Positions 31,551 through 64,000 of a stretch of DNA of 64,000 nt are shown one piece after another. A program made the translations under genes and the position numbers. The notes beneath the pieces were generated by a model that was not told the origin of the DNA, made no database searches, and saw only the letters and a program-made list of their open reading frames with translations. Position 1 is the stretch's first letter; each line of letters opens with the position of its first letter. This DNA comes from a virus. The stretch is taken from IMG/VR virus record IMGVR_UViG_3300031963_000102, positions 5,732 through 69,731 of that record; one strand, given 5' to 3'.

Positions 31551-31874
31551 CTATGTGTTGGTTTCCGAAGTGGAATGCACTTGCTCAACCCGCAAGCCGG
31601 GTGTGACAATAATCAGACCAGTATGGCCCGCTGGCAAAAGCACTTCCATGAACGTTGTCGATGCGTCGGAAGGATTCGAAACGCCGCCAAGATATCCCGT
31701 TCTGTATGACACAAGCACAAGAACATCTCCAGGTTCGAACATCCCAACGGTTGTGCCCATCCATGACTTCACAGCCCATATGGGTGCCGCATGCCCGACG
31801 TTCCTAACTAGCTGTCCAGGTACAGGACTGCCAGCTGTAGGAGGCTCTGCATATGGAAGCGTGGAGGTTGTCAT
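31551..31874 (-). CDS. SH3b-like small family protein
   Basis: PVPGQLVR...FEPGDVLVLV...EVLLPAGHTGLI. Confidence 0.55.
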   Translation of the reverse strand: MTTSTLPYAEPPTAGSPVPGQLVRNVGHAAPIWAVKSWMGTTVGMFEPGDVLVLVSYRTGYLGGVSNPSDASTTFMEVLLPAGHTGLIIVTPGLRVEQVHSTSETNT

Positions 31875-31911
31875 GGTCTTATGTGTATACTGTGTAGGTA
31901 GATTATGTCGT

Positions 31912-32109
31912 TTATCCATCATTATCTGTCTCAACCTCTTCCCATACTCGACGGTCGAAGCCCCAGCAAGACCAGTATACGCCGTCGTGTCCCAAAAATG
32001 AATAGTGGTCGACGCCCACTTCTGGGCGGTACGCCACGATAAAGCGAAGTATGCTTCGATTATCGACAAAAGCGTACAGCTTCCCAAGCTTCAGCGGTTC
32101 CTTATTCAC
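31912..32109 (-). CDS. Small array family protein
   Basis: LKLGKLYAF...DG..WEEVE. Confidence 0.65.
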   Translation of the reverse strand: MNKEPLKLGKLYAFVDNRSILRFIVAYRPEVGVDHYSFLGHDGVYWSCWGFDRRVWEEVETDNDG

Positions 32110-32311
32110 GGAGCTCCTCCCATTCATCAACGTACAGAACGCTCTTATGAATGGTTCCAGCGCTGGTTTGCAAGTACACACACGGACAAGCAAAACCGCC
32201 GCCATGTACGCTCAGAACTACTAGTGCAGCCTCGGGATACATTCTGCTCCTGTATAGCTTTCCAGGCTGAAGCCCACCTTCACGCCGAACCATCATGACA
32301 CCTTCCGCCAT
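32102..32311 (-). CDS. Small array family protein
   Basis: LQPGKLYR...WEELRE. Confidence 0.7.
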   Translation of the reverse strand: MAEGVMMVRREGGLQPGKLYRSRMYPEAALVVLSVHGGGFACPCVYLQTSAGTIHKSVLYVDEWEELRE

Positions 32312-32336
32312 TCACCATGGTACATGAACTTGTCGT

Positions 32337-32543
32337 TCACAGTTCCTCCCAGTCGTCATACCACAAGAACAACTCATATACTTCGCCCATGTTGTCGACA
32401 ACCCGGCAGTCCGAGTATGTCGGAGCTACCTGATTCACTCTCAACATCAGAAAGAGTTTGCCTATTCTATCTCGTGCCGATGGAGCTTCCTGCTTTATCC
32501 TGTACAGCTTGCCTGGAATGTAACGTTTGACATTTGCCTTCAT
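32337..32543 (-). CDS. Small array family protein
   Basis: YIPGKLYR...DWEEL. Confidence 0.7.
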   Translation of the reverse strand: MKANVKRYIPGKLYRIKQEAPSARDRIGKLFLMLRVNQVAPTYSDCRVVDNMGEVYELFLWYDDWEEL

Positions 32544-32545
32544 GG

Positions 32546-32770
32546 CTATTCCTCGACTTCTGCCCAACTGAAGTCATACAGGAAGAACGAACACACGTTT
32601 CCCCAGGCATCCAAAAACTCACAATAGGTTCTGCAACTTATGTCGTGGTCTACTGGACTCTGCCATGCGGGGTCATGGCTTATCACACATAGAACAAGAA
32701 TCGGATAGTCTCCCATATGAACACTTGGTTTCGTAAACCGGTAAAGCTTTCCTGGAACGAACCGACTCAT
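32546..32770 (-). CDS. Small array family protein
   Basis: FVPGKLYR...WAEVEE. Confidence 0.7.
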   Translation of the reverse strand: MSRFVPGKLYRFTKPSVHMGDYPILVLCVISHDPAWQSPVDHDISCRTYCEFLDAWGNVCSFFLYDFSWAEVEE

Positions 32771-32964
32771 GTTGGTAGCTCCGTCCAGTCTTCAAGCCAC
32801 ATGGATATGGAAGCGATTCTGCCGCTTGGACCAATAGTGAGACACCGGTGATTTTCGTTGTCAACACTACCACACAACACTTTCAGAACCATGACGAACG
32901 CTGGCGTCGTGTAGCCCACCGGCTTATAGAGCTTGCCAGGAACAAACGTTGTAAACGCTTTCAT
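32767..32964 (-). CDS. Small array family protein
   Basis: FVPGKLYK...DWTELPT. Confidence 0.7.
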   Translation of the reverse strand: MKAFTTFVPGKLYKPVGYTTPAFVMVLKVLCGSVDNENHRCLTIGPSGRIASISMWLEDWTELPT

Positions 32965-33143
32965 GGGTTTATCTCTTTCCAGTCTGCAGCCCACATGACG
33001 CTCTCGACGATTCTGCCGCTATTAGTGACAACAAGGCAGCGGAAACGCTCAACCCCCGCCTCTAGCACCTGCAGAACCATGGCAGAGTAGGTGTTCGAAT
33101 ATCGATACAGCCTACCAGGAACAAAATGTGTTACCATTCTCAT
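32961..33143 (-). CDS. Small array family protein
   Basis: FVPGRLYR...DWKEINP. Confidence 0.7.
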   Translation of the reverse strand: MRMVTHFVPGRLYRYSNTYSAMVLQVLEAGVERFRCLVVTNSGRIVESVMWAADWKEINP

Positions 33144-33382
33144 TTGAGTTCCTGCCAATCGGCGCACAAGATTGTCCAATCGTCATGCCACATTGTTATG
33201 GTGCTCACACCGCCGGTTTCTGGGCAAAAGGTTTTGCAACCTGCAGTGTAGATGCTGGGGCCAATATTATGAGTTATTCCATCGATGGACAACAGCAGGC
33301 GTACGCTCTTGAGCAAGCTATGTTGGTAAAGCCTGCCAGGAACAAGAAAGCCCTGATGATGCAGCTGCGTGTGGTTTTGCAC
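33140..33382 (-). CDS. Small array family protein
   Basis: LVPGRLYQ...DWQELK. Confidence 0.7.
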   Translation of the reverse strand: MQNHTQLHHQGFLVPGRLYQHSLLKSVRLLLSIDGITHNIGPSIYTAGCKTFCPETGGVSTITMWHDDWTILCADWQELK

Positions 33383-33390
33383 TTGTCCTG

Positions 33391-33594
33391 CTACTTTTCT
33401 GATTCGAGTTCAACCCAATATTTTGGAGTCAATACAATCCTACGCTCTATCAGCCCGGTACAGCTCAACACCGTTACTTCAACATCAACGCCATAGCGGC
33501 TAGGGTCTGAGTCCACCTGAACAACAAAGATAAGATATCCAGGGTTGGTTCTTGGCTGATACAACCTTCCAGGCTTGAAGGTCATGTTCTTCAT
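33391..33594 (-). CDS. Small array family protein
   Basis: FKPGRLYQ...WVELE. Confidence 0.7.
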   Translation of the reverse strand: MKNMTFKPGRLYQPRTNPGYLIFVVQVDSDPSRYGVDVEVTVLSCTGLIERRIVLTPKYWVELESEK

Positions 33595-33788
33595 GGTGTT
33601 TCCAGCTCTTCCCACTCGTCATCGCTCCAGATTGGCTGGGGCACAACTCTTCCAATACTGGGAAAGAATGCCAGCACCGACTTCACGCCGTTGCTGTCGG
33701 CCTGAAGAATCTCAATCATCATGAAAACCGCCAGCTTGTTGTTTTTGCACTGGTACATCTTACCCACTTCGAAAGCCTTGACGCTCAT
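33591..33788 (-). CDS. Small array family protein
   Basis: FEVGKMYQ...EWEELE. Confidence 0.7.
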   Translation of the reverse strand: MSVKAFEVGKMYQCKNNKLAVFMMIEILQADSNGVKSVLAFFPSIGRVVPQPIWSDDEWEELETP

Positions 33789-33795
33789 GGTTCCC

Positions 33796-34002
33796 TCACA
33801 GCTTCTTCCAGCGCGCATCCTCAACATACAGGTCTAGAGTTTCGCATTCTCCTGTGGTCAGCAATACCTTGCAGCGTTGGTAAGCGTATGTTGACTTAGG
33901 AGGATACTGGTAAGGCGGAAGCACTTCTAGAATCATGATGGGCGAACGTCCTGGCAGGAGGCCCTCTTTGTGGTAAAGTTTGCCTACTTCGAAGTAATTC
34001 AC
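33796..34002 (-). CDS. Small array family protein
   Basis: FEVGKLYH...RWKKL. Confidence 0.7.
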   Translation of the reverse strand: MNYFEVGKLYHKEGLLPGRSPIMILEVLPPYQYPPKSTYAYQRCKVLLTTGECETLDLYVEDARWKKL

Positions 34003-34202
34003 AGCTCCTCCATGTCCTCCAAGTCAGAGCACCATATCGATATACGCTCAACGATGCCACGGCTGGGAAAGAACGCATGACAGCCATTGACATATGGCTT
34101 GTTTAGACTGTCATGACCTGCCAGCGCACCCAGCGATATGAGAACGAAACAGATGGAATGGTTGTTTTTGCTCCTGTAGAGCTTCCCTGGTTCTAGCTTC
34201 AC
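33999..34202 (-). CDS. Small array family protein
   Basis: LEPGKLYR; AFFPS.G shared with 33591. Confidence 0.7.
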   Translation of the reverse strand: MKLEPGKLYRSKNNHSICFVLISLGALAGHDSLNKPYVNGCHAFFPSRGIVERISIWCSDLEDMEEL

Positions 34203-34213
34203 GTTCTGTGTCT

Positions 34214-34242
34214 AGTATATCAGCTGCAGCCGTGATTATCAA
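34214..34242 (-). promoter_or_regulatory. sigma70-like promoter TTGATA-17-TATACT
   Basis: AATAATGG upstream element; 17-bp spacer. Confidence 0.75.
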
Positions 34243-34250
34243 CCATTATT

Positions 34251-34511
34251 TCATGAGCAAACAACCAACTTGAACACGCTGCTGAGTTCGTGCTCGTAAT
34301 ATCCCCACGTTCGAACAACACCATCACTTTCAAGGAAGTAGTATATGTTGCAACCAAGGCTGCTCTTCCATGGTTCCGAACGCAAGTATACTGAAAACAC
34401 TTGTGCGTCTGTGTTCCAGTACAGCTTTCCAGGCACAAGCGTATGTCCATGTTGAATACGGACTATTCGAACACCTGGAGCTGTGTGTGCTGTCTTCGAA
34501 GACTTCTTCAT
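34251..34511 (-). CDS. Small array family protein
   Basis: LVPGKLYW...LESDG; ATGA-coupled. Confidence 0.6.
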   Translation of the reverse strand: MKKSSKTAHTAPGVRIVRIQHGHTLVPGKLYWNTDAQVFSVYLRSEPWKSSLGCNIYYFLESDGVVRTWGYYEHELSSVFKLVVCS

Positions 34512-34714
34512 GAGATGAGCAACCAGTTCTGAGGAACCATGATTTCTAGTTTTGTCGTTCCATCTGTGGCTAGGAAACGGACACACTCAACAACTATAGT
34601 TTCTGGTGGGAGACTTACCTCTAGAATGAATATGGTTTCTCCACTCGGGTTGTTTTCTCCAAGATAGTTTTCTCGGTAAAGCCTCCCTGGAATGAACGTT
34701 GGTTTTCTTCTCAC
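34508..34714 (-). CDS. Small array family protein
   Basis: FIPGRLYR...ATDG..NW. Confidence 0.7.
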   Translation of the reverse strand: MRRKPTFIPGRLYRENYLGENNPSGETIFILEVSLPPETIVVECVRFLATDGTTKLEIMVPQNWLLIS

Positions 34715-34941
34715 GGTATCTCTGCTTCCACCCAGTGCTCTGGGTATGCTACGTACGGATAGACACCAGGGCCACCCTGGAGCTCATCAATGGTCAACAC
34801 TTGCATGAAGTATCTTGCCGAGTAAGGGTCATACTTTGCCGCCGTTACGTTCTCTATGGTGATGGGAACAATCAGCCTGCATGCCATTCCTGGCAGAATG
34901 CACCGGTAAAGCTTACCCACAACAAATGATTCGATGCTCAT
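34711..34941 (-). CDS. Small array family protein
   Basis: FVVGKLYR...HWVE. Confidence 0.7.
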   Translation of the reverse strand: MSIESFVVGKLYRCILPGMACRLIVPITIENVTAAKYDPYSARYFMQVLTIDELQGGPGVYPYVAYPEHWVEAEIP

Positions 34942-35180
34942 AGTTCGACCCAGTCTTCGAGGTAAAGTTGCAGTGCAAATATTTCCCCGTACTGGTTTAT
35001 GACTTCAACCACACGCCATCCTCGGTTACTAGGGAACGGATCGTCACTCTTACTCACACTCAAAACGCACACAACCCATTCATAACGCACTGACTCGTAC
35101 AGCTTCCCTGGGATGAACTCTTTGGCGATGCTTGTGTGTATGTTTGTGTGTTCATGTGATTCGTCTCCACAGAGTTTCAT
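34938..35180 (-). CDS. Small array family protein (start ambiguous)
   Basis: FIPGKLYE...DWVEL; the coupled ATG at 35155 is out of frame. Confidence 0.6.
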   Translation of the reverse strand: MKLCGDESHEHTNIHTSIAKEFIPGKLYESVRYEWVVCVLSVSKSDDPFPSNRGWRVVEVINQYGEIFALQLYLEDWVEL

Positions 35181-35337
35181 AAGCAAATGCTCTTTGTGCT
35201 GTGCTTCCATCTTCCCACAGTATATCCACATATGCCCCATTCGGGGAATCGGACGGCCCACTCTTCAGAACAAACATTACAAAAGGCTGTCCACTTATGG
35301 GCACATACACATGTCCTGGAATGAACTTCGTCTTCAT
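35152..35337 (-). CDS. Small array family protein
   Basis: MKTKFIPGHVY...LWRRIT. Confidence 0.7.
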   Translation of the reverse strand: MKTKFIPGHVYVPISGQPFVMFVLKSGPSDSPNGAYVDILWEDGSTAQRAFAYETLWRRIT

Positions 35338-35525
35338 ACAACCTCAACCCATATCAAGTTGGTAAGAGCAACCCCACGTTCGATCGTAGCGTCGCTAGTA
35401 CAACAGATAACATCAACCTCGGTAGAGCCGTCGTCATACTGACATTCAACCCTTAGCACGAGAATCATGAATTCCTCTTCATCCTTCGGGTGATACAACC
35501 GTCCTGGAATGAACTTCGTCTTCAT
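35334..35525 (-). CDS. Small array family protein (recent duplicate of 35522)
   Basis: FIPGRLYHPKDEEEF...LTNLIWVEVV. Confidence 0.75.
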   Translation of the reverse strand: MKTKFIPGRLYHPKDEEEFMILVLRVECQYDDGSTEVDVICCTSDATIERGVALTNLIWVEVV

Positions 35526-35713
35526 ACAACCTCAACCCATAACAAGTTGGTAAGAGAAACACCCCATTCGACGTAAGCGTCGGAACAGTAGATAACATCA
35601 ACCTCGGTTGTGCCAGAGTCATCTTCGGGAGAAACCACTCTGAGCACAAGAATCAGAAATTCATCTTCATCCTTCGGGTGATACAACTGACCTGGAACGA
35701 ACTGAGTTGTCAT
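35522..35713 (-). CDS. Small array family protein
   Basis: FVPGQLYHPKDEDEF...LTNLLWVEVV. Confidence 0.75.
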   Translation of the reverse strand: MTTQFVPGQLYHPKDEDEFLILVLRVVSPEDDSGTTEVDVIYCSDAYVEWGVSLTNLLWVEVV

Positions 35714-35928
35714 ACAACAAACTCCCACTGTGCCGGATTCACCGAACAACGAATTTCAATCTTGCCGTTAGCTAGCAACACATCGGCGTAAACTAGTCTC
35801 GCCCGCCGTGGCTGTGGCGTTCCATCCACAGCGAGGACAAATATTCTGAAGCCACCAGTTTCGGGGCACTCACCTTCCTGTGGCGTCAATCGGTATATAT
35901 GTCCTGGAACGAGTTGATTCGTCTTCAT
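35710..35928 (-). CDS. Small array family protein
   Basis: LVPGHIYR...QWEFVV. Confidence 0.7.
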   Translation of the reverse strand: MKTNQLVPGHIYRLTPQEGECPETGGFRIFVLAVDGTPQPRRARLVYADVLLANGKIEIRCSVNPAQWEFVV

Positions 35929-36137
35929 ACTACTAGTCTCCACAAGCATATTGAAAGCCTTGCTCTGTGTTCTATTCCGCCGTGCTCTCGCAGTACGTCA
36001 ACAACAGCTAATCCGTTGTCGTCGACGGGCGAAAGTACCCGGAGAATGAAGACCCTAACAGGCTGCACGAAGATGTTCGACGAGAACAGCGTGTATATGT
36101 GTCCTGGAGTGAACTCTTCTGGTATGCCACGCATCAT
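35925..36137 (-). CDS. Small array family protein
   Basis: FTPGHIY...LWRLVV. Confidence 0.7.
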   Translation of the reverse strand: MMRGIPEEFTPGHIYTLFSSNIFVQPVRVFILRVLSPVDDNGLAVVDVLREHGGIEHRARLSICLWRLVV

Positions 36138-36352
36138 CCTTCTACCTCTTCCCAGTCTTCATAGAACAGTGGCTCTTCGTCCTGAACTCCATCGCTTCCA
36201 AGAAACGTGACAACTGCATGCGAAGCGCTACCGGGCGGATACTGATGCTTGCTTACACCGAGCACGTATATCATCACCCACGTTTCGAAGTAGTCTTGAA
36301 GACGCCCAGGCATTATCTTGTAGAGTTTTCCTGGAACGAACTCGGTGACCAT
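36134..36352 (-). CDS. Small array family protein
   Basis: FVPGKLYK...DWEEVE. Confidence 0.7.
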   Translation of the reverse strand: MVTEFVPGKLYKIMPGRLQDYFETWVMIYVLGVSKHQYPPGSASHAVVTFLGSDGVQDEEPLFYEDWEEVEG

Positions 36353-36354
36353 GG

Positions 36355-36585
36355 CTACACTGGCTTCCAGTAGAAGTTCGTGATGTAATGTCTGAGAACA
36401 TGACGAATCGTGCCGTCTGGCAACAGAACCTTCCGGTAGTTGGAATCAGCTAGCTCTAGAACATAAACAGAATGGAGAACCACGAGTCTGTTGGGTTCGC
36501 TAAACTGTGGATGAATCACAAGAAGCTGAATTCCGGATTCAACAATCGCTGTGTGCAGCCCTTTGTTGCATTCTTCGTCGCTCAT
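36355..36585 (-). CDS. Small protein, divergent array member
   Basis: VYVLE...VLLPDGT...YWKPV. Confidence 0.55.
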   Translation of the reverse strand: MSDEECNKGLHTAIVESGIQLLVIHPQFSEPNRLVVLHSVYVLELADSNYRKVLLPDGTIRHVLRHYITNFYWKPV

Positions 36586-36797
36586 GACTCGCTCAACTCA
36601 TTCCACATGCATCGCCTAATATACACCGTCTTGACAAGACCTTGTGCAACCAGGAGGTACCTACACTGGTATTGTATGTGTTCGGGGTTTGACGTATCCC
36701 TTGGTGTGTAAACATGCAAAACGTTCAGAACGAAGATAACAACGTCGTGATTCCTGAGCTTGTAGAGTTTCCCCGGAACAAACTGTTCTATGGCCAT
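36582..36797 (-). CDS. Small array family protein
   Basis: FVPGKLYK...WNELSE. Confidence 0.7.
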   Translation of the reverse strand: MAIEQFVPGKLYKLRNHDVVIFVLNVLHVYTPRDTSNPEHIQYQCRYLLVAQGLVKTVYIRRCMWNELSES

Positions 36798-36982
36798 AGG
36801 TCAGAAATCCGAATCCACTGCCAGCCAAAGTGGGTGGTGGAGTATGTTTTTCCGTTCTCGTCCAGGACATCATACCCTCCCAGGGCATTGAACGACAGAA
36901 TCATTCGAATTTGTGATGTGTTGTAGCTGTTCTGATAGACAGCACCAACAACAAGGAAATCTTTCACGTCGAATCCTTTCAC
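36788..36982 (-). CDS. Small array family protein
   Basis: LVVGAVY...LDENG..W; GTGA-coupled. Confidence 0.6.
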   Translation of the reverse strand: MKGFDVKDFLVVGAVYQNSYNTSQIRMILSFNALGGYDVLDENGKTYSTTHFGWQWIRISDLWP

Positions 36983-37176
36983 GTCGCAAGCTCTTCCCAG
37001 AACTTCCGGACCATTTGTATCTTCATCATCTCGCCCTTGTCGTTGATAACCCAGCACATCGGCAGCCCAGGATTGGAGTATGCAGGGATTATCTCCAGCA
37101 CAAGGACCGTCCAGGGAAACTCGGTGTTGCCGTAGAGCTTCCCAACCTCGATGCCGGAGTGAGACTGAACCTTCAT
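36979..37176 (-). CDS. Small array family protein
   Basis: IEVGKLY...FWEEL; ATG 6 nt after the -10 box. Confidence 0.7.
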   Translation of the reverse strand: MKVQSHSGIEVGKLYGNTEFPWTVLVLEIIPAYSNPGLPMCWVINDKGEMMKIQMVRKFWEELAT

Positions 37177-58305: not shown

Positions 58306-58550
58306 CAGTTTCATTCAAACCTGGGGCTCTTGTGATTGCGCTGCAGCGTGTTGAAGGCGGACCGTTCTGGAAGACGGCTGATATCAACGATACTAGCAGG
58401 CACAGAGCCGTGGCAGAAGGAGAGGTGTTTGTTGTTCTGTCCTGTGATGAACAGGCCAACCAACTGCATGTTGTTGACTCTGCGGGCCTTGTCGGGTACG
58501 TACCCACCGCCCAAGGCCGAGAAAACTCAAACTGGATGCAAGTGAGCTAA
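58302..58550 (+). CDS. Array protein (VD..G.VGF subfamily)
   Basis: FKPGALV..FWKT...VVDSAGLVGYV. Confidence 0.7.
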   Translation: MTVSFKPGALVIALQRVEGGPFWKTADINDTSRHRAVAEGEVFVVLSCDEQANQLHVVDSAGLVGYVPTAQGRENSNWMQVS

Positions 58551-58554
58551 GCGT

Positions 58555-58857
58555 ATGTCAGCAAGGAAGCAACTAAGACTATTTCCGTTGAAGGCTTCGG
58601 AGATCCCGGAAGGCGGCAAAGAGATTGCGGGCGGAAGTTGGTATAGACTTCGCTATGGCTTGTCAGGGCTGAAGTTCCGGAAGCTGTTTGCTCGGTGTTT
58701 GCTTGTCAATCCGACCGAAAAGGTAGCGTGGAAGCCGGTAGAGATTCTCGACATGAGCTATGCGCAGTGCCAACTCAACGTGATCACACAGGAAGGAAGA
58801 CTTCTTCAGTGCTTTCTGGTTTCAGGCAACATTGTGTTTCTACTGGATGAGTCATGA
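58555..58857 (+). CDS. Hypothetical protein (possible divergent member)
   Basis: 100-aa ORF within the array; ITQEG turn. Confidence 0.5.
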   Translation: MSARKQLRLFPLKASEIPEGGKEIAGGSWYRLRYGLSGLKFRKLFARCLLVNPTEKVAWKPVEILDMSYAQCQLNVITQEGRLLQCFLVSGNIVFLLDES

Positions 58858-59129
58858 ACAACAACAAACCTAGTGGGTGCCACGAACAACTAGTTGGAAA
58901 GCTGCTAAAAAAGCTGCACGGCAGCAGTGGCATGTGGGAAGACACATACCAGACCAGCGATGGAACCACTTACGGGTCTATCTGGAGTGGGGTTATTTGC
59001 GAGGGTGACCTTGTTGTGTGTGTAGGCTTCGTTGGCGTCCCAAAAAAGGAATGGATGATGAAGTTTATTACCAGCGATGGTGATGCAAGGTTTATGCATT
59101 TTGCTTATTCAGATTGGAAGTTGTTGTGA
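58854..59129 (+). CDS. Array protein
   Basis: VGKLLK...VVCVGFVG..DWKL, paralog of 56727. Confidence 0.7.
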   Translation: MNNNKPSGCHEQLVGKLLKKLHGSSGMWEDTYQTSDGTTYGSIWSGVICEGDLVVCVGFVGVPKKEWMMKFITSDGDARFMHFAYSDWKLL

Positions 59130-59353
59130 AACCAGGAACGGTCTTGAAGCCGCTCTACCGACTTACAGGCGGGTGGAATCGGCATGATAGCCGGGAAGTT
59201 ACGCTCCAGCAGGGAGAGTTGGTTCTTGTCTTGCACTGGGCAACTCGTTCTTTGTTGAGTGCCGAGGGTGAGCTGTTTCGCTTTCCGCTCAGTTGGGTGG
59301 GGTCCACGGACTTTTTGGTTGTGTGTGAACCAAAAGAGGATACAACCACATGA
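59126..59353 (+). CDS. Array protein
   Basis: KPGTVL...QGELVLVL...SAEG. Confidence 0.65.
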   Translation: MKPGTVLKPLYRLTGGWNRHDSREVTLQQGELVLVLHWATRSLLSAEGELFRFPLSWVGSTDFLVVCEPKEDTTT

Positions 59354-59595
59354 GTTTCACAGCAGGAGACATTGTGAGGTTCGAAGGCGCAACAACATCC
59401 CGTATTATATTCTGGAAGAACGACAACCCAAGCGACTTCGGAATGCACCGGAATCTTGAACATGGAGATGTCTTCGTCGTTCTTGCCGATGCCACAAATG
59501 ACATGACCTTTTTCAAGGTTGTTGATTCGAGTGGAGCCGTGGGCTCCCTTCCAAGCCCAAACTCGGAAGCCTACTGGAAGGTAGTGAAGCCATGA
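59350..59595 (+). CDS. Array protein (VD..G.VG subfamily)
   Basis: FTAGDIV..FWK...VVDSSGAVG..YWKVV. Confidence 0.7.
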   Translation: MSFTAGDIVRFEGATTSRIIFWKNDNPSDFGMHRNLEHGDVFVVLADATNDMTFFKVVDSSGAVGSLPSPNSEAYWKVVKP

Positions 59596-60008
59596 CAATC
59601 ATCGATCTAGATATTGACAGGATCAGGTACACTGGAAAGCTACACGTAGGAGAGATGAGGGACATGCCAACCCTCCAACTATCCGACTTGGACAGCGACC
59701 TTGTGTTTCCGGGACTGTATCGAACGAGGGATCAGCTGTCATTGTTTCCTTCGCTTGAACGTGTTTCTAAGATAGATTCTACACCGTCCAATAAGTTGGA
59801 GTTCGACAAGGTAGCTTGTGGCCAGCTTGTAAGCATTCCGAGCGGGCTTGCTGTCAAAGTACACGGGCTTTTACTGGTACAAGTGATTCCACCATCCGGC
59901 CACTCTGGATGGTTGGTCTTCCACTTTCATGACACTTGCAACGGCATGCCTCCTCCGAAATTCGCCGTTGCCTTCCAGTTCAGCAGTTGGTTTGACAGGG
60001 TAGCATGA
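59592..60008 (+). CDS. Hypothetical protein, extended array-like member
   Basis: FPGLYR...PSGHSGWL. Confidence 0.55.
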   Translation: MTIIDLDIDRIRYTGKLHVGEMRDMPTLQLSDLDSDLVFPGLYRTRDQLSLFPSLERVSKIDSTPSNKLEFDKVACGQLVSIPSGLAVKVHGLLLVQVIPPSGHSGWLVFHFHDTCNGMPPPKFAVAFQFSSWFDRVA

Positions 60009-60403
60009 AACACATTCTATCAGAGCAAGACCCAACGATCGTCACACCTGCTTGGTATAGGCTGTTGGACAAGTTTCACCCGCTATACAACACGCTGGAA
60101 CCAGACAGCTATGATTCACTGAATCCCATAAGCGCAGGAACCAACTTCATAGTAGATCCTGACAGCGATGGCCTGCACAGGCTTTACATTCCAACAGGAG
60201 AGATACACTGGACGCCGAAGAACAGCGAGCTCATGAGCTCTAGAGCCCGCTGGGCCATGATAATGTGTGTCACTCCAGCCGGAGAAGTTGGATGGCTGTC
60301 CATCGGCTATGCTCTTCATGATGACATAAAGACTCTGACGAAAGCTGACATAAGCGTGTCGTTCTATCGTCACTTCAAGGCTCTACCCTCACATAATCCT
60401 TGA
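60005..60403 (+). CDS. Hypothetical protein, extended array-like member
   Basis: PAWYR...TPAGEVGWL. Confidence 0.55.
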   Translation: MKHILSEQDPTIVTPAWYRLLDKFHPLYNTLEPDSYDSLNPISAGTNFIVDPDSDGLHRLYIPTGEIHWTPKNSELMSSRARWAMIMCVTPAGEVGWLSIGYALHDDIKTLTKADISVSFYRHFKALPSHNP

Positions 60404-60428
60404 TATATGAATGTGGTTGTGATAGAAT
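60400..60428 (+). promoter_or_regulatory. sigma70-like leaderless promoter TTGATA-17-TAGAAT-6-ATG
   Basis: ATAATCC upstream; ATG at 60435. Confidence 0.75.
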
Positions 60429-60434
60429 GAGGCT

Positions 60435-60776
60435 ATGACACACTGGCTCACACAGGGACATTCCGAGATTGACCTTCGAGAAACCATGCATCGTTGTGGG
60501 TTTCGAAAGCCTGGACTGTACCGGGTCACCAGAGCAGGAAATAGAACCATGGTGTTCCACTGGGTTGGCGGTGTCTGGAGATGGAAAAGTGAAGCTCTCA
60601 ATCATAATGACTTACTTTTCTTTCTTCGGGCTGAATACGTGAGCACCACCGACAATCGCATCATTTTGGTGTTTCTAGCCAGTGATGGTGCTGAATGCAG
60701 GTGCCATGCCGACCATCCTTTCAGCGAGGACAGACACTCTAGGCTCAAGGATTCCTTCGAGCCCGTAACCGAATAA
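60435..60776 (+). CDS. Array-like protein
   Basis: KPGLYR...FLASDG. Confidence 0.6.
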   Translation: MTHWLTQGHSEIDLRETMHRCGFRKPGLYRVTRAGNRTMVFHWVGGVWRWKSEALNHNDLLFFLRAEYVSTTDNRIILVFLASDGAECRCHADHPFSEDRHSRLKDSFEPVTE

Positions 60777-60795: not shown

Positions 60796-61932
60796 ATGCG
60801 AACACTATACACACGAGACAGTCTAGGAAACTTGCGTTCATGGAGAATGGAAGTTGACGGCAACCGTTATCGAACCATCTCTGGTCTTGTTGACGGAGAA
60901 CAAGTCAGCTCTGAGTGGACCGTGATCCATGAGGGCAAGAACATAGGCCGTAGCAACGCTACAACGGCCCAAGAGCAGGCTCAGAGGGAAGTTGAAGCCC
61001 GATACACGAAGCAACTGAAGACGGGCTACACAGAGGCTCCTGATGGCAGCAACGGGGTAGCCACATATGTTGAGCCCATGCTTGCGAAGAGTTACGAAGA
61101 CTATCGAGGCAAGCTTGACTTCTCCAACGGAGACTGGTTGTTGAACATCAAGTACAACGGCTTGCGGGCTGTTGCAACGAAGGGCGGTCTTCACACAAGG
61201 AAGGGAGAGCGTTTTGTTTCTGTTCCTCACATCGAGCGTTCTCTGAAGAAGTTCTTCGACAAGCATCCAGACGCTGTTCTGGACGGTGAGCTGTTCAACG
61301 AGAACTATCGCCAACAGCTGAATGAGATTGTGAAGCTTGCAAGGAAGACCAAGAACGTCACGCAGAAGGACTTGGAGAGTTCGGAGAAGCTTATCGAGTT
61401 CTATGTGTATGACGGTTATGGTTTTGACGGCATGACGGAATCAACACCATACGAGACAAGGTTTGACTGGATTTCAAACGAGCTGTTTGGGATGTATGAA
61501 CACATCGGGTTTGTCCCGCACTGGAAGTTTTACTCTCCAGAACAGATGGACAAGCTCTACACAGATATTGTTTCGAAGGGGCACGAGGGAGCCATTCTCA
61601 GGTATGCCAAGATGCCTTACGAGCACAAGCGCAGCAAAAACCTGTTGAAGCTCAAGCCTGTTGACGATGCTGAGTTTGTTGTTGTGGATATCAACGAAGG
61701 CACAGGAAACTGGAGCGGCAAAGCCAAGATTATCTCGCTTCGCTCTCTTGACGGCAAGCTCACGTTCGATGCTTCTTTCAAGGGCACCATGGAGCAAGCA
61801 GAACAGGTGTTGAAGGACAAGGATAAATGGCTTGACAAGGTTGTGACCATCTGCTATAATGGTCTGACAGGACTGGGAACACCACAGTTCGCTCAGTTCG
61901 ACATCAACAACTGTATCAAGGGAGACAGGTAA
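60796..61932 (+). CDS. ATP-dependent DNA ligase with N-terminal WGR-like domain
   Basis: PMLA, KYNGLR (motif I), LDGEL, FYVYD, EGAILR, YEHKRS..LLKLK. Confidence 0.92.
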   Translation: MRTLYTRDSLGNLRSWRMEVDGNRYRTISGLVDGEQVSSEWTVIHEGKNIGRSNATTAQEQAQREVEARYTKQLKTGYTEAPDGSNGVATYVEPMLAKSYEDYRGKLDFSNGDWLLNIKYNGLRAVATKGGLHTRKGERFVSVPHIERSLKKFFDKHPDAVLDGELFNENYRQQLNEIVKLARKTKNVTQKDLESSEKLIEFYVYDGYGFDGMTESTPYETRFDWISNELFGMYEHIGFVPHWKFYSPEQMDKLYTDIVSKGHEGAILRYAKMPYEHKRSKNLLKLKPVDDAEFVVVDINEGTGNWSGKAKIISLRSLDGKLTFDASFKGTMEQAEQVLKDKDKWLDKVVTICYNGLTGLGTPQFAQFDINNCIKGDR

Positions 61933-61948
61933 GCCCTTCGGAGACACC

Positions 61949-62191
61949 ATGAAGAAGCCGAAACCAGATGTGGGACCAGAGTTCGTTGTTGGAGGAATCT
62001 ATGTGGACACACATCCCAGAGGAAGAGGCGTGTTCTTCGTGTTGTCTGTTGACCGTGACACAAAATACAACGGACATTACCATGTGCGAGCGCTGTTCTG
62101 CACTAGCGATATTTTCGCTTCAGGAGACGTGGGCAAGTTCGCCTTCACCGAAGGTTCGGCGTTCCACACTGACTGCGTGAGGATTGTATGA
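61949..62191 (+). CDS. Array protein, G-x-x-x-H subfamily
   Basis: FVVGGIY...GSAFH. Confidence 0.7.
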   Translation: MKKPKPDVGPEFVVGGIYVDTHPRGRGVFFVLSVDRDTKYNGHYHVRALFCTSDIFASGDVGKFAFTEGSAFHTDCVRIV

Positions 62192-62382
62192 ACACCAGAG
62201 TTGAACCTGTAACGTTGGTCGCCGGAGGTTTGTACCTGAGAAATGGGCTGTTCGTTGTCCTGTCGCTCGAATTCATAGTAGGCATGTTTTATGTTACATG
62301 CTTGTTCAGCACTGGCGTGGTAGACACACTCAGGTTCGAGTGGGGCAGTCAATTCCATTACAGCGTGCAGAGGATAGCGTGA
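62188..62382 (+). CDS. Array protein, G-x-x-x-H subfamily
   Basis: LVAGGLY...GSQFH..RIA. Confidence 0.7.
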   Translation: MNTRVEPVTLVAGGLYLRNGLFVVLSLEFIVGMFYVTCLFSTGVVDTLRFEWGSQFHYSVQRIA

Positions 62383-62576
62383 AGACTGCTGAAGGGTTTG
62401 TTGTAGGAGGCATATACCAGGACCATCGTGGATTGTTCATGGTGTTGGAAACCGGCATAAACTCAGAATATCCTCGCTATCTGATGCCGTTGGTGCTACG
62501 TTCCGATGGCGGCATTGTCATGCTAGACTTCATGATCGGTGGACCATACCATCATTCTATCAAGAGGATAGCATGA
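62379..62576 (+). CDS. Array protein, G-x-x-x-H subfamily
   Basis: FVVGGIY...GGPYH..RIA. Confidence 0.7.
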   Translation: MKTAEGFVVGGIYQDHRGLFMVLETGINSEYPRYLMPLVLRSDGGIVMLDFMIGGPYHHSIKRIA

Positions 62577-62770
62577 AAGATTTCGTCGAGCTGGCCGTTG
62601 GGGGCTTGTACACAGGAAAGTTCGAGGGGACTTTCCTGATTCTAGAAGTGCGTGAACGAAGTGACAGTCGAAGCATGCAACTAGTTGTGTTACATGCCAG
62701 CGGACGAGTCGAAACATTTTCTTTTCTGCAGTACGGACCATTTCACAACTCGTGTACAAGGTTAGCATAG
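62573..62770 (+). CDS. Array protein, G-x-x-x-H subfamily
   Basis: LAVGGLY...YGPFH..RLA. Confidence 0.7.
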   Translation: MKDFVELAVGGLYTGKFEGTFLILEVRERSDSRSMQLVVLHASGRVETFSFLQYGPFHNSCTRLA

Positions 62771-62774
62771 TCCA

Positions 62775-63050
62775 ATGTCGGTATTCCCTTCATCTTCAAG
62801 GAATCCAAACCTAGTGGTTCTCCAAGCGGGAAAGCTGTATAGAGTGCCTCCGGATCCATATAGCTATAGCGTTCGCCGTATGCTTGACTGGGACGAACTG
62901 GACGGCGATAACCTTGTGTTCGTGTGCAGCGTCGTTGGGATGGGACATGTGCAAGAGGTTGTCCTTATCGATTCAAGGGGCGTTGTATGGAAAGGACATA
63001 TGGACCACGGTAGCTACTATCACAAGAGATTTTGGGAGATAGACACATGA
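62775..63050 (+). CDS. Array protein, G-x-x-x-H subfamily
   Basis: LQAGKLYR...GSYYH. Confidence 0.7.
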   Translation: MSVFPSSSRNPNLVVLQAGKLYRVPPDPYSYSVRRMLDWDELDGDNLVFVCSVVGMGHVQEVVLIDSRGVVWKGHMDHGSYYHKRFWEIDT

Positions 63051-63304
63051 GCTTGGTTAGACCACCCCTGGTACGAAACCTAGTTGTGGGAGAGCTATAC
63101 ACGCTATCACTGGAACATGAGCCAAAGTTACTCATGATTCTGGCCTCAAGACTAGAGGAAGGTAGTTTTCCGAGAGGAACAACAGGTAAGCATGTTATGA
63201 TTTTTTATATCACCTACTTGAACGAAGAGGGACAGCTGTGTGAGGATTGCTTTGGATGGGGCTCTCCGCTTCACAAAGGACTTGTTCATGTCAGAGCTGG
63301 TTGA
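63047..63304 (+). CDS. Array protein, G-x-x-x-H subfamily
   Basis: LVVGELY...GSPLH. Confidence 0.7.
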   Translation: MSLVRPPLVRNLVVGELYTLSLEHEPKLLMILASRLEEGSFPRGTTGKHVMIFYITYLNEEGQLCEDCFGWGSPLHKGLVHVRAG

Positions 63305-63566
63305 TATCGTTCCTGGGCAGCTGTATGTTCTCATTGGAAGAGGGGAGGATTGGCCAGCGTTTATCAACTGGACAGAACAGCGCTATGACACCTTGGTGTT
63401 CGTGACATCTTTCAAGTCATGGACTGACACCGTTGCTGTTTTCTCGACTACCGGTTCATTCAAGGACCGGTACATACTCAGGTGCATCGACAGCACTGGG
63501 GAAGAACGTTCCTTGCCACTGTTTCGAATCGGAAGCGACTTGCACAAAAGGTTCAGACATGTCTAG
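63288..63566 (+). CDS. Array protein, G-x-x-x-H subfamily
   Basis: IVPGQLY...GSDLH. Confidence 0.7.
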   Translation: MSELVDIVPGQLYVLIGRGEDWPAFINWTEQRYDTLVFVTSFKSWTDTVAVFSTTGSFKDRYILRCIDSTGEERSLPLFRIGSDLHKRFRHV

Positions 63567-63816
63567 CGAAGTAGAACCGGTCAAGCTTGTTGTCGGAAAC
63601 CTTTATCGGGTTGTGCCAACGCATCCGAATGGAACAAATATATTTGTCAACGGTCCTCGCTGGTATGAGCTCGATGAGCCCGTCATGCTGCTCCGAAAAG
63701 AGAACAACACCACCACACAAGTGGTCTTGACTGTGTTTATGGTTGCAACAGGACAAGTCCAGAAAACAACATGTCATTTAGGGTATTCCATTCACTGTAC
63801 TTTGAGGGACATGTGA
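63559..63816 (+). CDS. Array protein, G-x-x-x-H subfamily
   Basis: LVVGNLYR...GYSIH. Confidence 0.7.
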   Translation: MSSEVEPVKLVVGNLYRVVPTHPNGTNIFVNGPRWYELDEPVMLLRKENNTTTQVVLTVFMVATGQVQKTTCHLGYSIHCTLRDM

Positions 63817-63817
63817 T

Positions 63818-64000
63818 ATGAACGACCGAGGCATAGACCTGATTCCTGGTAAGCTGTATAGGCTGGAAAGAGGCCATGACCGATATGCTCAAGAACACTG
63901 GTATATGAGTGAGCAACCGGTGATGTTGCTATCTGTTACAGATGTACATACACACCAACACAACCTCTTGGTGCGTGTGCTGGATGTTTGTGGTGCTATC
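63818..64000 (+). CDS. Array protein (3'-truncated by window edge)
   Basis: MNDRGIDLIPGKLYR...PVMLL. Confidence 0.65.
   Translation, partial: MNDRGIDLIPGKLYRLERGHDRYAQEHWYMSEQPVMLLSVTDVHTHQHNLLVRVLDVCGAI

What the first reader, a model, noticed from the sequence alone, without database searches (positions are those of the whole stretch)
31551..64000. Massive tandem repertoire of ~85-90 small, hypervariable SH3/Tudor-like genes
Seen: two long arrays (31.9-42.1 kb minus, 50.5-64 kb plus) plus outliers at 20.7-21.7, 31.5, 43.3 and 48.5 kb. They encode mostly 55-110 aa proteins sharing a scaffold: N-terminal [FL]-x-[PV]-G-x-L-Y, a hydrophobic strand, an xxG turn and a C-terminal W-[EK]-[EK]-[VL]. 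The loops between these are unrelated. Genes are chained by ATGA/GTGA/TGATG overlaps. Established: 54079 (LRAGPSHYY...GDVV.L...VRV..SG.VGYV) fits the bacterial SH3b pattern, and the shorter members fit a Tudor/KOW-type barrel. No signal peptides are visible. Inference: more than a third of this window is an early-expressed library of fixed-scaffold, variable-surface binding proteins, possibly anti-defence or host-takeover binders. I know of no described system of this size, and this is my lead candidate for a new system.
Basis: partly seen in the sequence, partly recalled or inferred. Interest (0 to 1): 0.88.

Follow-up and report, generated by a model that had tools for sequence, protein, structure and literature searches.

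The report
Giant SH3-like gene family in phage
A fragment of a large uncultured freshwater phage gives more than a quarter of 64 kb to about 80 diverged copies of one small SH3-type barrel protein, an unusually large viral gene family whose binding targets are still unknown.

Summary
Two head-to-tail gene chains (31.5-42.1 kb, minus strand; 50.5-64 kb, plus strand) hold 93 ORFs. Of these, 76 match one profile (71 of 76 when each is left out of the model; 0 of 930 shuffled controls). They cover 28% of the window.

Two AlphaFold models (pLDDT 89.5 and 85.2) give SH3-like barrels. The longer type best matches bacterial SH3b domains (Z 9.0). No window member reaches a Pfam, PHROG or NCBIfam family.

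Conserved residues form the strands. The RT and n-Src loops vary in sequence and length.

The copies are old: median identity is 25%. They are not hypervariable within the population. Thirty-four external proteins are one-to-one orthologues (50-98% identity). Contigs from four freshwater studies are mostly at least 99% identical. dN/dS of the closest pairs is 0.30-0.53.

A second lineage (35% GC, ligase 58% identical) has the same array-ligase-array layout, with 26 members in 20 kb and no shared orthologues.

Seven sigma-70-like promoters lie 6-12 nt before array or amidoligase start codons (one lies 88 nt upstream), which suggests early transcription.

My reading is a repertoire of cytoplasmic binders. 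This is inferred, not tested. It is a new variant of a known kind, at unusual scale.

The parts
39429..42060 (-). Minus array, upstream block: 12 chained genes, all 12 profile-positive. Includes 40559-40756 and 40276-40497 (frames corrected).
31551..38384 (-). Minus array, downstream block: 31 chained genes, 30 profile-positive. 37698-37904 is a probable divergent member. Mostly short forms (median 70.5 aa on the minus strand).
   Evidence: model of 32546-32770, pLDDT 89.5
50462..51639 (+). Plus array, block A: 5 genes of a subfamily whose C-terminus carries C-x-C-C in place of the W-E-E-V motif. 2 are profile-positive and 3 are tied in by BLAST.
   Evidence: a 468-nt two-unit deletion variant in run X7
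51644..55484 (+). Plus array, block B: 14 genes, all profile-positive. These are long forms with an RT-loop segment. Includes 54079-54321.
   Evidence: model of 54079-54321, pLDDT 85.2, best matches SH3b
56133..59595 (+). Plus array, block C: 13 genes, 11 profile-positive. 58555-58857 and 59114-59353 are negative.
59592..60776 (+). Three longer ORFs (113-138 aa) that are profile-negative. They carry family-like motifs by eye, so they are possible divergent members.
   Evidence: sequences shown; membership not shown
61949..64000 (+). Plus array, block E, downstream of the ligase: 8 genes (7 profile-positive) plus a member cut by the contig end (63818-64000). This subfamily has an F/Y-H...R-I C-terminus.
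60796..61932 (+). ATP-dependent DNA ligase embedded in the plus array. It is the synteny anchor shared with the second lineage.
   Evidence: phrog_114, 5.4e-61; 58% identical to the ligase inside the L004 array
38381..39334 (-). Non-member that interrupts the minus array: a lipoprotein-like protein with an F5/8 type C domain.
   Evidence: PF22633 8.8e-13, PF00754 2.8e-12; N-terminal hydrophobic segment
34214..34242 (-). Sigma-70-like promoter with extended -10, 12 nt before the start of 33999-34202.
37183..37211 (-). Sigma-70-like promoter with extended -10, 6 nt before the start of 36979-37176 (leaderless layout). An 80%-identical 40-nt copy of the 34214 promoter region.
   Evidence: (D11)
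43212..43240 (-). Same promoter type, 6 nt before the amidoligase gene 42162-43205 that heads the minus-strand unit.
51890..51918 (+). Same promoter type, 6 nt before the start of 51925-52209.
53804..53832 (+). Same promoter type, 7 nt before the start of 53840-54082.
60400..60428 (+). Same promoter type, 6 nt before the start of 60435-60776.
61832..61860 (+). Perfect 12/12 sigma-70 consensus with TG, inside the 3' end of the ligase gene and 88 nt before 61949-62191.
21483..21728 (+). Outlier member outside the arrays (E 2.4e-7).
48403..48822 (+). Outlier ORF with a weak family match (E 2.2e-4), upstream of thymidylate synthase.
20501..21025 (+). Outlier: a larger ORF with a weak C-terminal family match (E 2.7e-4).
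40500..40559 (-). 19-codon mini-ORF that keeps only the N-terminal and C-terminal family motifs. It is a remnant of a unit with its core deleted in frame.

Best explanation
This is a lineage-specific, anciently expanded family of stand-alone SH3-type (SH3b-like) barrel proteins in a large uncultured freshwater phage.

Shown:
- At least 71-76 copies in two translationally coupled gene chains share one five-strand barrel scaffold.
- The two loops that set ligand specificity in SH3 domains (RT and n-Src) differ completely in sequence and length between copies.
- Each copy, loops included, is conserved in related phages and across freshwater samples.
- New units arise by local tandem duplication. 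Units are lost, gained or replaced one at a time between relatives.

Inferred:
- The chains are transcribed early by the host sigma-70 polymerase, from repeated extended -10 promoters placed so close to the start codon that the first mRNAs are leaderless.
- The proteins stay in the cytoplasm.
- Each acts as a small single-domain binder with its own fixed target. Together they form a repertoire that binds host, or possibly phage, macromolecules for host takeover or counter-defence.

The targets are unknown.
For: Family and count.

Fold:
- Short form: pLDDT 89.5, five strands. All top matches are SH3-like small barrels: EF-P domain I Z 6.2, KOW, UvrD Tudor, PWWP, a designed SH3.
- Long form 54079: pLDDT 85.2. 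Best matches are the phiSM101 endolysin SH3b (Z 9.0, rmsd 2.5, 67 aligned), the 2evr SH3b (Z 8.8) and LytB (7.8), then eukaryotic SH3 domains.

Sequence link to SH3:
- The window profile matches the external profile at hhalign probability 98.5%, E 1.6e-15.
- 7 of 36 external members hit Pfam SH3_3. P0110 scores 27.9 bits against a cut-off of 27.0.
- The external profile hits the Pex13 SH3 domain in the PDB at E 0.005.

Scaffold against loops: column analysis.

Real genes under constraint:
- dN/dS is 0.30-0.53 in the six closest paralogue pairs.
- 34 external one-to-one orthologues are 50-98% identical, while the next-best paralogue is about 25-35%.
- Between orthologues, scaffold positions differ by 8-16% and loops by only 16-22%.
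- Contigs of 4 runs from 4 studies are mostly at least 99% identical, with no indels.

Tandem origin and turnover:
- The nearest paralogue is the immediate neighbour in 15 of 79 cases, against 2.0 expected.
- Array and lineage labels cluster on the tree.
- One run carries a two-unit deletion.
- L005 has three extra units and one replaced unit relative to L004.
- A mini-ORF remnant survives at 40500-40559.

Early and cytoplasmic:
- Seven promoter sites lie on the coding strand in the rare gaps, against 0 in shuffles. The motif was defined post hoc.
- Neighbours on the same strand are thymidylate synthase and DNA ligase.
- Members show no signal-like N-termini.
Against: - No direct evidence of expression. 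No RNA data were obtained.
- No partner was identified, and no fused form gives a functional hint.
- The promoter motif is a consensus match in a phage of unknown host. The overall promoter-like counts are not clearly above shuffles (13 against 11.6 +/- 4.3, and 25 against 15.8 +/- 4.1).
- The best structural matches of the long form are peptidoglycan-binding SH3b domains, which argues for a cell-wall role rather than a cytoplasmic one.
- The best matches of the short form include RNA- and RNAP-binding barrels.
- Fold matches are middling (Z 6-9) and show no function.
- dN/dS below 1 and conserved loops fit any conserved function, not binders specifically.
- Only 19% of the genome is in hand.
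Confidence: 0.5

Rival explanations
1. The proteins are nucleic-acid-directed or transcription/translation-directed small barrels of the LSm, KOW or Tudor type. [quoted passage not shown]
For: - The short-form model matches EF-P domain I, Spt5/NusG KOW domains and the RNAP-binding UvrD/PcrA Tudor domain (Z 5.0-6.2).
- Its best viral match is a T4 13.8-kDa protein of the motB-dexA region (E 5.5e-3, TM 0.63). This fits MotB.1 of PMC12152347, where the abstract and passages give a 13.8 kDa monomer.
- Both sets are early and lie in dispensable or plastic regions.
Against: - There is no sequence relation to T4 MotB.1 (hhalign probability 2.8%) or GoF (0.08%).
- Only 11 of 76 members are basic (pI>8) and 32 are acidic.
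- Eighty different RNA or RNAP binders are harder to explain than eighty protein binders.
- The long form matches SH3b and SH3 domains, not LSm.
Confidence: 0.2
2. The proteins are cell-wall-targeting or envelope-targeting SH3b modules, like those of endolysins and NlpC/P60 hydrolases. They would be released at lysis, or act with lytic enzymes or the virion.
For: - The two best structural matches of the 54079 model are SH3b domains of a phage endolysin and of a cyanobacterial gamma-D-glutamyl-L-diamino-acid endopeptidase (Z 9.0 and 8.8).
- An external relative passes the Pfam SH3_3 cut-off.
Against: - There are no signal peptides or membrane anchors.
- There is no fused or adjacent hydrolase domain, and no longer fused forms were found (weak evidence).
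- The promoters are sigma-70-like rather than of the kind seen near structural genes. The neighbours are nucleotide-metabolism genes.
- About 80 copies with unrelated loops do not fit one wall ligand.
Confidence: 0.1
3. The barrels bind each other. Neighbouring, translationally coupled units would assemble into hetero-oligomers or a bead-like scaffold, either structural or a compartment component, rather than acting as independent binders.
For: - Tight translational coupling: 37 of 91 junctions are 4-nt overlaps.
- In a relative, two adjacent units are fused into one 160-aa two-domain protein seen on 4 contigs (P0105).
Against: - Compact phage genomes couple unrelated genes too.
- Unit gain, loss and replacement between close relatives is not expected for an obligate multi-subunit assembly.
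- No interaction was tested here.
Confidence: 0.1
4. The arrays are functionally dispensable selfish or neutral duplications, acting as genome filler in a jumbo phage.
For: - Tandem duplication signature.
- A decayed mini-ORF.
- Unit-level deletions exist in the population.
Against: - dN/dS is 0.30-0.53.
- One-to-one orthologues keep their loops.
- The arrays are stable across four studies.
- The same array-ligase-array layout is kept in a lineage whose ligase is only 58% identical.
Confidence: 0.05

Closest known systems
Bacterial SH3 domains (Pfam SH3_3, PF08239; SH3b of endolysins and NlpC/P60 hydrolases)
   Same: - Same fold. The best structural matches are 4krt_B (Z 9.0) and 2evr_A (Z 8.8).
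- Same motif order: a hydrophobic strand after a G-D/E turn, then a D-G-x-V/I-G turn.
- An external family member passes the SH3_3 cut-off.
   Different: - 0 of 73 window members reach SH3_3 even at E 0.1.
- They are stand-alone proteins, not appended to an enzyme.
- They have no export signal.
- They have their own conserved N-terminal F-x-P-G-K-L-Y and C-terminal W-E-E-V motifs.
- There are about 80 copies in one genome fragment.
[quoted passage not shown]
   Same: - Small early phage proteins with an SH3-topology barrel, non-essential in the laboratory, function unknown.
- The best BFVD match of the short-form model fits MotB.1.
   Different: - T4 has three members scattered in the genome. 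Here there are at least 71-76 in two arrays.
- No detectable sequence relation.
- The T4 proteins carry extra C-terminal domains according to the paper.
Lineage-specific expansion of about 35 zinc-ribbon proteins in Bacillus phage G (PMC7824862; passage read)
   Same: A very large paralogous family of tiny single-domain proteins in a jumbo phage, with a proposed regulatory or binding role.
   Different: A different fold (zinc ribbon). It has about half the copy number found here in a fragment that is only 19% of a genome.
Hyperplastic regions and PeSL cassettes of T4-type phages (PMC2839356, PMC4122927; listing and start of abstracts only)
   Same: - Blocks of small, variable, early genes between conserved modules.
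- Repeated early promoters.
- Unit-wise insertion, deletion and replacement between relatives.
   Different: - Here nearly all units are homologues of one family.
- I did not find a conserved promoter-plus-stem-loop cassette at every junction. Most junctions are 4-nt overlaps.
Smaller tandem arrays of SH3-like barrel genes noted earlier in this scan (e1-5800606, e1-3261463, e1-124123 and others; AI notes, unchecked)
   Same: The same kind of thing: chained small SH3/KOW-like paralogues in phage accessory regions, with unit-level turnover.
   Different: Those have 5-13 copies. This one has about 80 and a second lineage with at least 26 in 20 kb. No sequence comparison with them was made.
Multigene families of large eukaryotic DNA viruses (ASFV MGF360/505, poxvirus ankyrin and Bcl-2-like families; recalled, not checked here)
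   Same: Dozens of tandem paralogues of one small binding scaffold near genome plasticity zones. They are used against host defences and for host range.
   Different: Different viruses, hosts and folds. This is an analogy only.

Membership tests
SH3 superfamily / bacterial SH3b (Pfam SH3_3, PF08239) | Significant match to the Pfam SH3_3 model | tested here: not met
   - Window members: 0 of 73 at E<=0.1. One weak SH3_2 hit (0.0038) and one weak SH3_4 hit (0.069).
- External relatives: 7 of 36 at E<=0.1. Only P0110 is shown to pass the cut-off (27.9 bits against 27.0).
- The link to the window family is indirect, by hhalign at 98.5%.
SH3 superfamily / bacterial SH3b (Pfam SH3_3, PF08239) | Five-strand SH3 barrel with RT, n-Src and distal loops | tested here: met
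   - Two predicted models: pLDDT 89.5 and 85.2.
- The top rows are dominated by SH3b and SH3 domains (Z up to 9.0).
- One search lists SH3-like small barrels.
- These are predicted structures, not solved ones.
SH3 superfamily / bacterial SH3b (Pfam SH3_3, PF08239) | Context typical of SH3b: fused to, or next to, a cell-wall hydrolase, and exported | tested here: not met
   - The proteins are stand-alone, 59-123 aa.
- No signal-like N-termini by hydropathy.
- No longer fused forms found (weak evidence).
T4 GoF / MotB.1 / Frd.2 LSm-like family | Detectable homology to GoF or MotB.1 | tested here: not met
   hhalign of A1 against T4 MotB.1 gives probability 2.8%, and against GoF 0.08%. Only a fold-level resemblance remains.
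Diversity-generating retroelement target family (programmed hypervariation) | Reverse transcriptase and template/variable repeat pair; variation within populations | tested here: not met
   - RVT_1 has 0 matches in the 69.7-kb contig, which is a fragment only.
- Direct repeats are only the short motif-coding stretches and recent duplicates.
- Contigs from 4 studies are mostly at least 99% identical.
PeSL-type mobile early cassettes (T4-type hyperplastic regions) | A conserved early promoter plus stem-loop flanking each exchanged unit | tested here: inconclusive
   - A repeated promoter occurs at 7 sites, two of them 80%-identical 40-nt copies.
- 78 of 91 junctions have at most 10 nt between genes, so there is no room for a cassette.
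- Stem-loops were not examined specifically.
PHROGs / NCBIfam catalogued phage families | A match to any existing family model | tested here: not met
   - PHROGs: 0 of 73 at E<=0.01.
- NCBIfam: 0 of 73.
- tblastn of two members against 50,697 GenBank phage records: no match.

The most novel reading that the evidence does not exclude
A clade of large freshwater phages keeps a heritable 'binder library'. It consists of dozens to perhaps more than a hundred stand-alone SH3 modules. Each has fixed, specific RT and n-Src loops aimed at a different host factor or defence protein. The modules are produced together, immediately after infection, from leaderless early transcripts. Lineages rebuild the repertoire independently by birth and death of units as hosts change. 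This would be the bacteriophage counterpart of the host-range and immune-evasion multigene families of giant eukaryotic DNA viruses, and a natural source of minimal protein binders.
Probability: 0.25. Interest if true: 0.85.

Novelty: new variant of a known kind. Interest (0 to 1): 0.66.

Why it matters
- Paralogue families of this size are very rare in phages. The largest case I found in print is about 35 copies, and it was called unprecedented (PMC7824862, passage read).
- At least 71-76 copies of one uncatalogued SH3-type protein fill 28% of a 64-kb fragment. The genome is estimated at only 19% complete.
- A second lineage with a different GC content keeps the same layout with a different set of copies.
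- That pattern is a constant scaffold, copy-specific but conserved loops, and lineage-specific birth and death of units. It is what one expects of a repertoire matched to many host targets.
- If so, it gives a tractable set of about 80 small natural binders with which to find host factors or defence systems in uncultured freshwater bacteria.
- It would also be a phage parallel to the multigene families of large eukaryotic viruses.
- Even if the function is different, the family deserves a database model. No Pfam, PHROG or NCBIfam model recognises it.

Tried and rejected
Relatives and context.
- megablast of both arrays against GenBank phages found no match.
- tblastn of two members against the same collection found no match.
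- IMG/VR scans with a member, the ligase and an external sub-alignment found no true relative. The one locus returned (L003) has no family member by my HMM or by the genome search, so I dropped it as spurious.
- The first metagenome scan, with A4, found nothing.
- A scan of GTDB genomes with the P0043 group found nothing.
- The 485-kb uncultured phage LR745208.1, which shares a virion protein, has 0 family matches. The positive control on the own contig gave 23.
I could not fetch the 287,776-base contig that encodes a member, or the orthologue DNA. So there is no codon-level test between orthologues and no count for a full genome.

Expression.
- No RNA holder was listed among the 22 runs. This says nothing about expression.

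Function leads.
- The ESM Atlas returned only unnamed viral clusters.
- A search for longer fused forms found none (weak evidence).
- Of the four long hits of the representative search, Pfam assigns two to other repeat folds: P0001 to Peptidase A4 plus a lectin, and P0067 to RCC1. P0015 was not scanned; I judge it spurious from its length and 10 short stretches. P0058 is a separate tandem-barrel protein. I set all four aside. That leaves 79 small external hits out of 83.
- The A1 profile gave 0 hits against PDB sequences.
- Foldseek against the PDB and BFVD gave no row at E<=1e-3 for either model.

Ideas rejected.
- Programmed hypervariation (DGR): see the membership test.
- T4-type late promoters: TATAAATA has 0 matches.
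- Homology to T4 MotB.1 or GoF.
- Complex prediction was not used. I make no claim that would rest on it.

Population differences.
- Only 40 of the 75 differences were shown. Among the 35 codons they change, 17 changes are synonymous and 18 are not. The sample is too small, and partly from contig ends, to test selection.

Caveats on my own analyses.
- The tree has 81 columns for 102 rows, and most forks are unresolved. Clustering of lineage labels could partly reflect amino-acid composition (35% against 49% GC).
- The promoter pattern was written from the sites it then found.
- Paper supplements were closed. Tables S4 and S5 of PMC12152347 and the supplements of PMC7824862 could bear on the comparisons.

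Full report
WHAT THE WINDOW IS

The 64-kb window is bases 5732-69731 of a 69,731-base IMG/VR virus record that CheckV rates 19% complete. It is therefore a fragment of a much larger phage genome.

It has no near relative in 50,697 GenBank phage records. A 663-aa virion protein at 44035-46026 is 29-33% identical to virion proteins of T4-like Synechococcus phages and of a 485-kb uncultured phage.

Contigs nearly identical to the plus array occur in runs labelled freshwater metagenome. I laid four runs from four studies, and most pieces were at least 99% identical.

CHECKING THE OBSERVATION

Gene chains. A strand-constrained chain of ORFs gives 93 genes in 31.2-42.1 kb (minus) and 49.8-63.8 kb (plus). 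A six-frame profile scan showed that three of my frames were wrong. The true genes are 35152-35337, 40559-40756 and 40276-40497.

Family membership.
- BLASTP alone (E<=1e-3) joins 35 genes in one cluster and 24 more in six small ones.
- An iterated HMM reached 73 members. None of 930 shuffled sequences scored E<10.
- On the corrected set, 76 of 93 genes score E<=1e-3.
- Because members score against a model that contains them, I repeated the test leaving each one out. 71 of 76 stay at E<=1e-3, 75 of 76 at E<=0.01, and one (36355-36585) is lost.
- A profile made only of sequences from elsewhere (A6) finds 23 places in the contig, all within 32.3-64.0 kb of the window: 22 in the two arrays and one at the 48.5 kb outlier.

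Size and layout.
- Members are 59-123 aa and cover 18,150 nt, or 28% of the window.
- Nine profile-negative ORFs look like divergent members by eye. Three of them, in the C-x-C-C subfamily at 50462-51409, are tied in by BLAST.
- Junctions are as described: 37 of 91 are 4-nt overlaps, 56 overlap, and 78 leave a gap of at most 10 nt.

Non-members inside the arrays.
- A lipoprotein-like gene with an F5/8 type C domain (38381-39334).
- An ATP-dependent DNA ligase (60796-61932).
- A few small ORFs: 49792, 50190, 55477 and 55847.

FOLD AND FAMILY

No window member reaches a catalogued family.
- Pfam gives one weak SH3_2 hit and one weak SH3_4 hit among 73 members.
- PHROGs gives 0 of 73 and NCBIfam 0 of 73.
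- The profile finds nothing among PDB sequences.

Short form. AlphaFold2 on a short minus-strand member (32546-32770), with the paralogue alignment, gives pLDDT 89.5 and five strands. Structure search returns only SH3-like small barrels: EF-P domain I (Z 6.2, rmsd 2.6, 59 aligned), KOW domains, the UvrD/PcrA Tudor domain, PWWP and a designed SH3. These Z values are middling. They show the fold class, not function.

Long form. Its best matches are bacterial SH3b domains: the phiSM101 endolysin (Z 9.0, rmsd 2.5, 67 aligned), the Nostoc NlpC/P60 endopeptidase 2evr (Z 8.8) and LytB (7.8). Many eukaryotic SH3 domains follow.

Sequence evidence.
- The window profile and the external profile are homologous (hhalign 98.5%, E 1.6e-15).
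- 7 of 36 external members hit Pfam SH3_3. One passes the curated cut-off (27.9 bits against 27.0).
- The external profile hits the Pex13 SH3 domain at E 0.005, with the canonical register.

I therefore call these remote, stand-alone members of the SH3 superfamily, closest to SH3b. They are not members of Pfam SH3_3 as defined.

SCAFFOLD AGAINST LOOPS

I aligned the 76 members to the HMM.

Conserved columns:
- the N-terminal F-x-P-G-K-L-Y (G in 75 of 76);
- the hydrophobic second strand, preceded by G-D/E;
- the third strand;
- the D-G-x-V turn (G in 67 of 76);
- the C-terminal W (58 of 66) with a following V or L.

Variable stretches, all with near-zero information:
- States 20-28, plus an insertion of up to 35 aa (mean 7.8). 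This is the RT-loop position.
- States 38-48, plus an insertion of up to 30 aa. This is the n-Src position.
- States 59-67.

That these two loops set ligand specificity in SH3 domains is textbook knowledge that I recall. I did not test it here. The minus array holds mostly short forms (median 70.5 aa). The plus array holds long forms with an RT-loop segment (median 85.5 aa).

AGE, SELECTION AND TURNOVER

Age. Paralogues are old: median identity is 25%, the 5-95% range is 18-34%, and the maximum is 71%.

Origin by tandem duplication.
- The nearest paralogue is the immediate neighbour in 15 of 79 cases, against 2.0 expected (maximum 10 in 1000 permutations).
- Minus and plus labels cluster on a weakly resolved tree: 9 changes against about 30 in shuffles.

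Constraint.
- The six closest pairs have dN/dS of 0.30-0.53.
- The search of 1.84 billion representatives found only 91 proteins at E<=1e-3. Eight are the window's own. Of the four long ones, Pfam assigns two to other repeat folds.
- Of the rest, 34 are one-to-one orthologues of particular window members: 50-98% identical over the full length, with the next-best paralogue at about 25-35%.
- Between these orthologues the scaffold differs at 8-16% of positions and the loops at 16-22%. So the loops are unrelated between paralogues but well kept within each orthologous line.

Stability in the population.
- Across four freshwater runs the 14-kb plus array is covered by contigs that are mostly at least 99% identical, with no indels.
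- One contig joins 50923 to 51392 and removes exactly two units of the C-x-C-C subfamily at their conserved 3' ends.

So 'hypervariable' is true between copies only. I found no reverse transcriptase. The only repeats are the short stretches that encode the conserved motifs, plus recent duplicates.

A SECOND LINEAGE

A metagenome scan with an abundant external member returned three contigs of 33-35% GC. The window is about 49% GC.

- The family HMM finds 26 members in 20 kb of the 72-kb contig (L004), 15 in a 7.5-kb contig (L005) and 5 in a 1.4-kb contig.
- In L004 an ATP-dependent DNA ligase sits inside the array. It is 58% identical to the window's ligase. The array-ligase-array layout is therefore shared.
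- No L004 member has a clear orthologue in the window. Best matches are about 20-35% identical over most of the length, at E 1e-3 to 1e-6. L004 members cluster together on the tree: 6 label changes against 23 in shuffles.
- I read this as independent birth and death of units in each lineage. The caveat is that composition bias and poor resolution could add to the clustering.
- Between the close relatives L004 and L005, 9 of 15 units are 75-100% identical and in the same order. L005 also has three extra units in a row and one replaced unit.
- In another relative, two adjacent units are fused into one 160-aa protein seen on four contigs.

TRANSCRIPTION SIGNALS

The best sigma-70-like matches (at least 10 of 12, 17-nt spacer, TG extended -10) fall on the coding strand. 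Most lie in the few intergenic gaps: 34214-34242, 37183-37211 and 43212-43240 (minus), and 51890-51918, 53804-53832 and 60400-60428 (plus). A perfect consensus lies at 61832-61860, inside the 3' end of the ligase gene.

- In six of the seven the -10 ends 6-12 nt before the start codon. That implies leaderless or near-leaderless first genes.
- A pattern written from these sites occurs 7 times, against 0 in shuffles, and nowhere in the structural half of the window. This is post hoc.
- The total promoter-like counts are not clearly above shuffles.
- The plus array follows thymidylate synthase (48794-49795) and contains the ligase. The minus unit starts with an amidoligase gene.

This fits early or middle transcription by the host polymerase. 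It is inference only. No RNA run was listed.

HOW IT MOST LIKELY WORKS

Shown:
- one SH3-type scaffold;
- about 71-76 or more copies;
- copy-specific loops that are conserved among relatives;
- tandem origin with unit-level turnover;
- tight translational coupling;
- no export signals by a crude test.

Inferred:
- early co-expression in the cytoplasm;
- each copy acting as a small binder with its own target, so that the arrays form a repertoire for host takeover or counter-defence.

I give this 0.5. The rivals, with my confidence in each:
- RNA-directed, RNAP-directed or ribosome-directed LSm/KOW/Tudor-like regulators (0.2);
- wall-binding SH3b modules (0.1);
- barrels that assemble with one another (0.1);
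- functionless filler (0.05).

COMPARISON WITH WHAT IS KNOWN

- T4 early proteins. [quoted passage not shown] The best viral structural match of my short-form model is a 13.8-kDa T4 protein of the motB-dexA region, which fits MotB.1. Profile comparison shows no sequence relation.
- Largest phage expansion in print. The largest I found is about 35 zinc-ribbon genes in Bacillus phage G, called unprecedented (PMC7824862, passage).
- T4-type hyperplastic regions. Those with PeSL cassettes resemble the organisation (PMC2839356, PMC4122927; listing and start of abstracts only).
- Earlier notes of this scan. They describe arrays of 5-13 SH3-like genes in other phages (unchecked). So the scan has met this kind of feature before on other DNA, at much smaller scale.
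- Literature searches. My searches found no description of this family or of an array of this size. Absence from those searches is not proof.

VERDICT

It is a new variant of a known kind: tandem small SH3-like accessory genes and lineage-specific expansion in large phages. What is unusual is the scale, the uncatalogued family and the second lineage. Interest is 0.66.

Noticed in passing
34214-34242, 37183-37211, 43212-43240 (-); 51890-51918, 53804-53832, 60400-60428, 61832-61860 (+): A shared promoter form, TTGAnA-N14-TGnTAnnnT. In six of the seven sites it ends 6-12 nt before the start codon, so the transcripts would be leaderless. None occurs in the structural half (1-31 kb).
   Followed up: partly
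40500-40559 (-): A 19-codon mini-ORF. It is coupled by TGATG upstream and ends 2 nt before the next ATG. It keeps only the P-G-K-L-F start and the W-I-E-V end of a family unit.
   Followed up: yes
50462-51639 (+): A five-gene subfamily in which the C-terminal W-E-E-V is replaced by C-[ST]-C-C-x-[ED]-V-L, with histidines upstream. It may be a zinc-binding variant. One freshwater run has a form lacking exactly two of these units (468 nt, 50923->51392).
   Followed up: partly
56133-56453 and 56455-56733 (+): These neighbouring paralogues are 65% identical overall, but their first 29 residues differ at a single position and the DNA there is 92% identical (D5). This suggests recent gene conversion or a partial duplication.
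   Followed up: no
53925-54008 (+), gene 53840-54082: One contig of run X18 carries 15 differences in 84 nt. They change 8 of 10 affected codons non-synonymously, all in the n-Src loop region (residues 45-57). It is a single contig, near its end, at depth 4.9, so it may be a recombinant or an artefact.
   Followed up: partly
protein P0105 (external, 160 aa; orthologue of 37472-37693 plus a second unit): In a relative, two adjacent family units are fused into one two-domain protein. It was seen on 4 contigs.
   Followed up: partly
38381-39334 (-): A lipoprotein-like gene with an acidic, alanine-, valine- and proline-rich linker and an F5/8 type C (galactose-binding-like) domain. It interrupts the minus array, has its own promoter-like site and, unlike the array promoters, a long leader.
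   Followed up: partly
L004:8382-9545 and window 60796-61932: ATP-dependent DNA ligases that are 58% identical sit inside the arrays of both lineages. The L004 neighbourhood also has GIY-YIG, DUF559/Vsr-like and ParB-HTH genes between array blocks.
   Followed up: partly
50190-50465 (+): A 91-aa ORF rich in cysteine, about 13 of them in C-x-x-C-like pairs. It lies at the head of the plus array and is not a family member.
   Followed up: no
42162-43205 (-): An Amidoligase_2 gene (2.6e-31) heads the minus-strand unit that runs into the array. Further downstream on the same strand lie six 150-240-aa genes (27266-31200), which another note reads as ADP-ribosyltransferases. I did not check that.
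   Followed up: no
44035-46026 (+): A virion structural protein that is 29-33% identical to proteins of T4-like Synechococcus phages and of the 485-kb uncultured phage LR745208.1. The latter has no member of the SH3-like family.
   Followed up: partly
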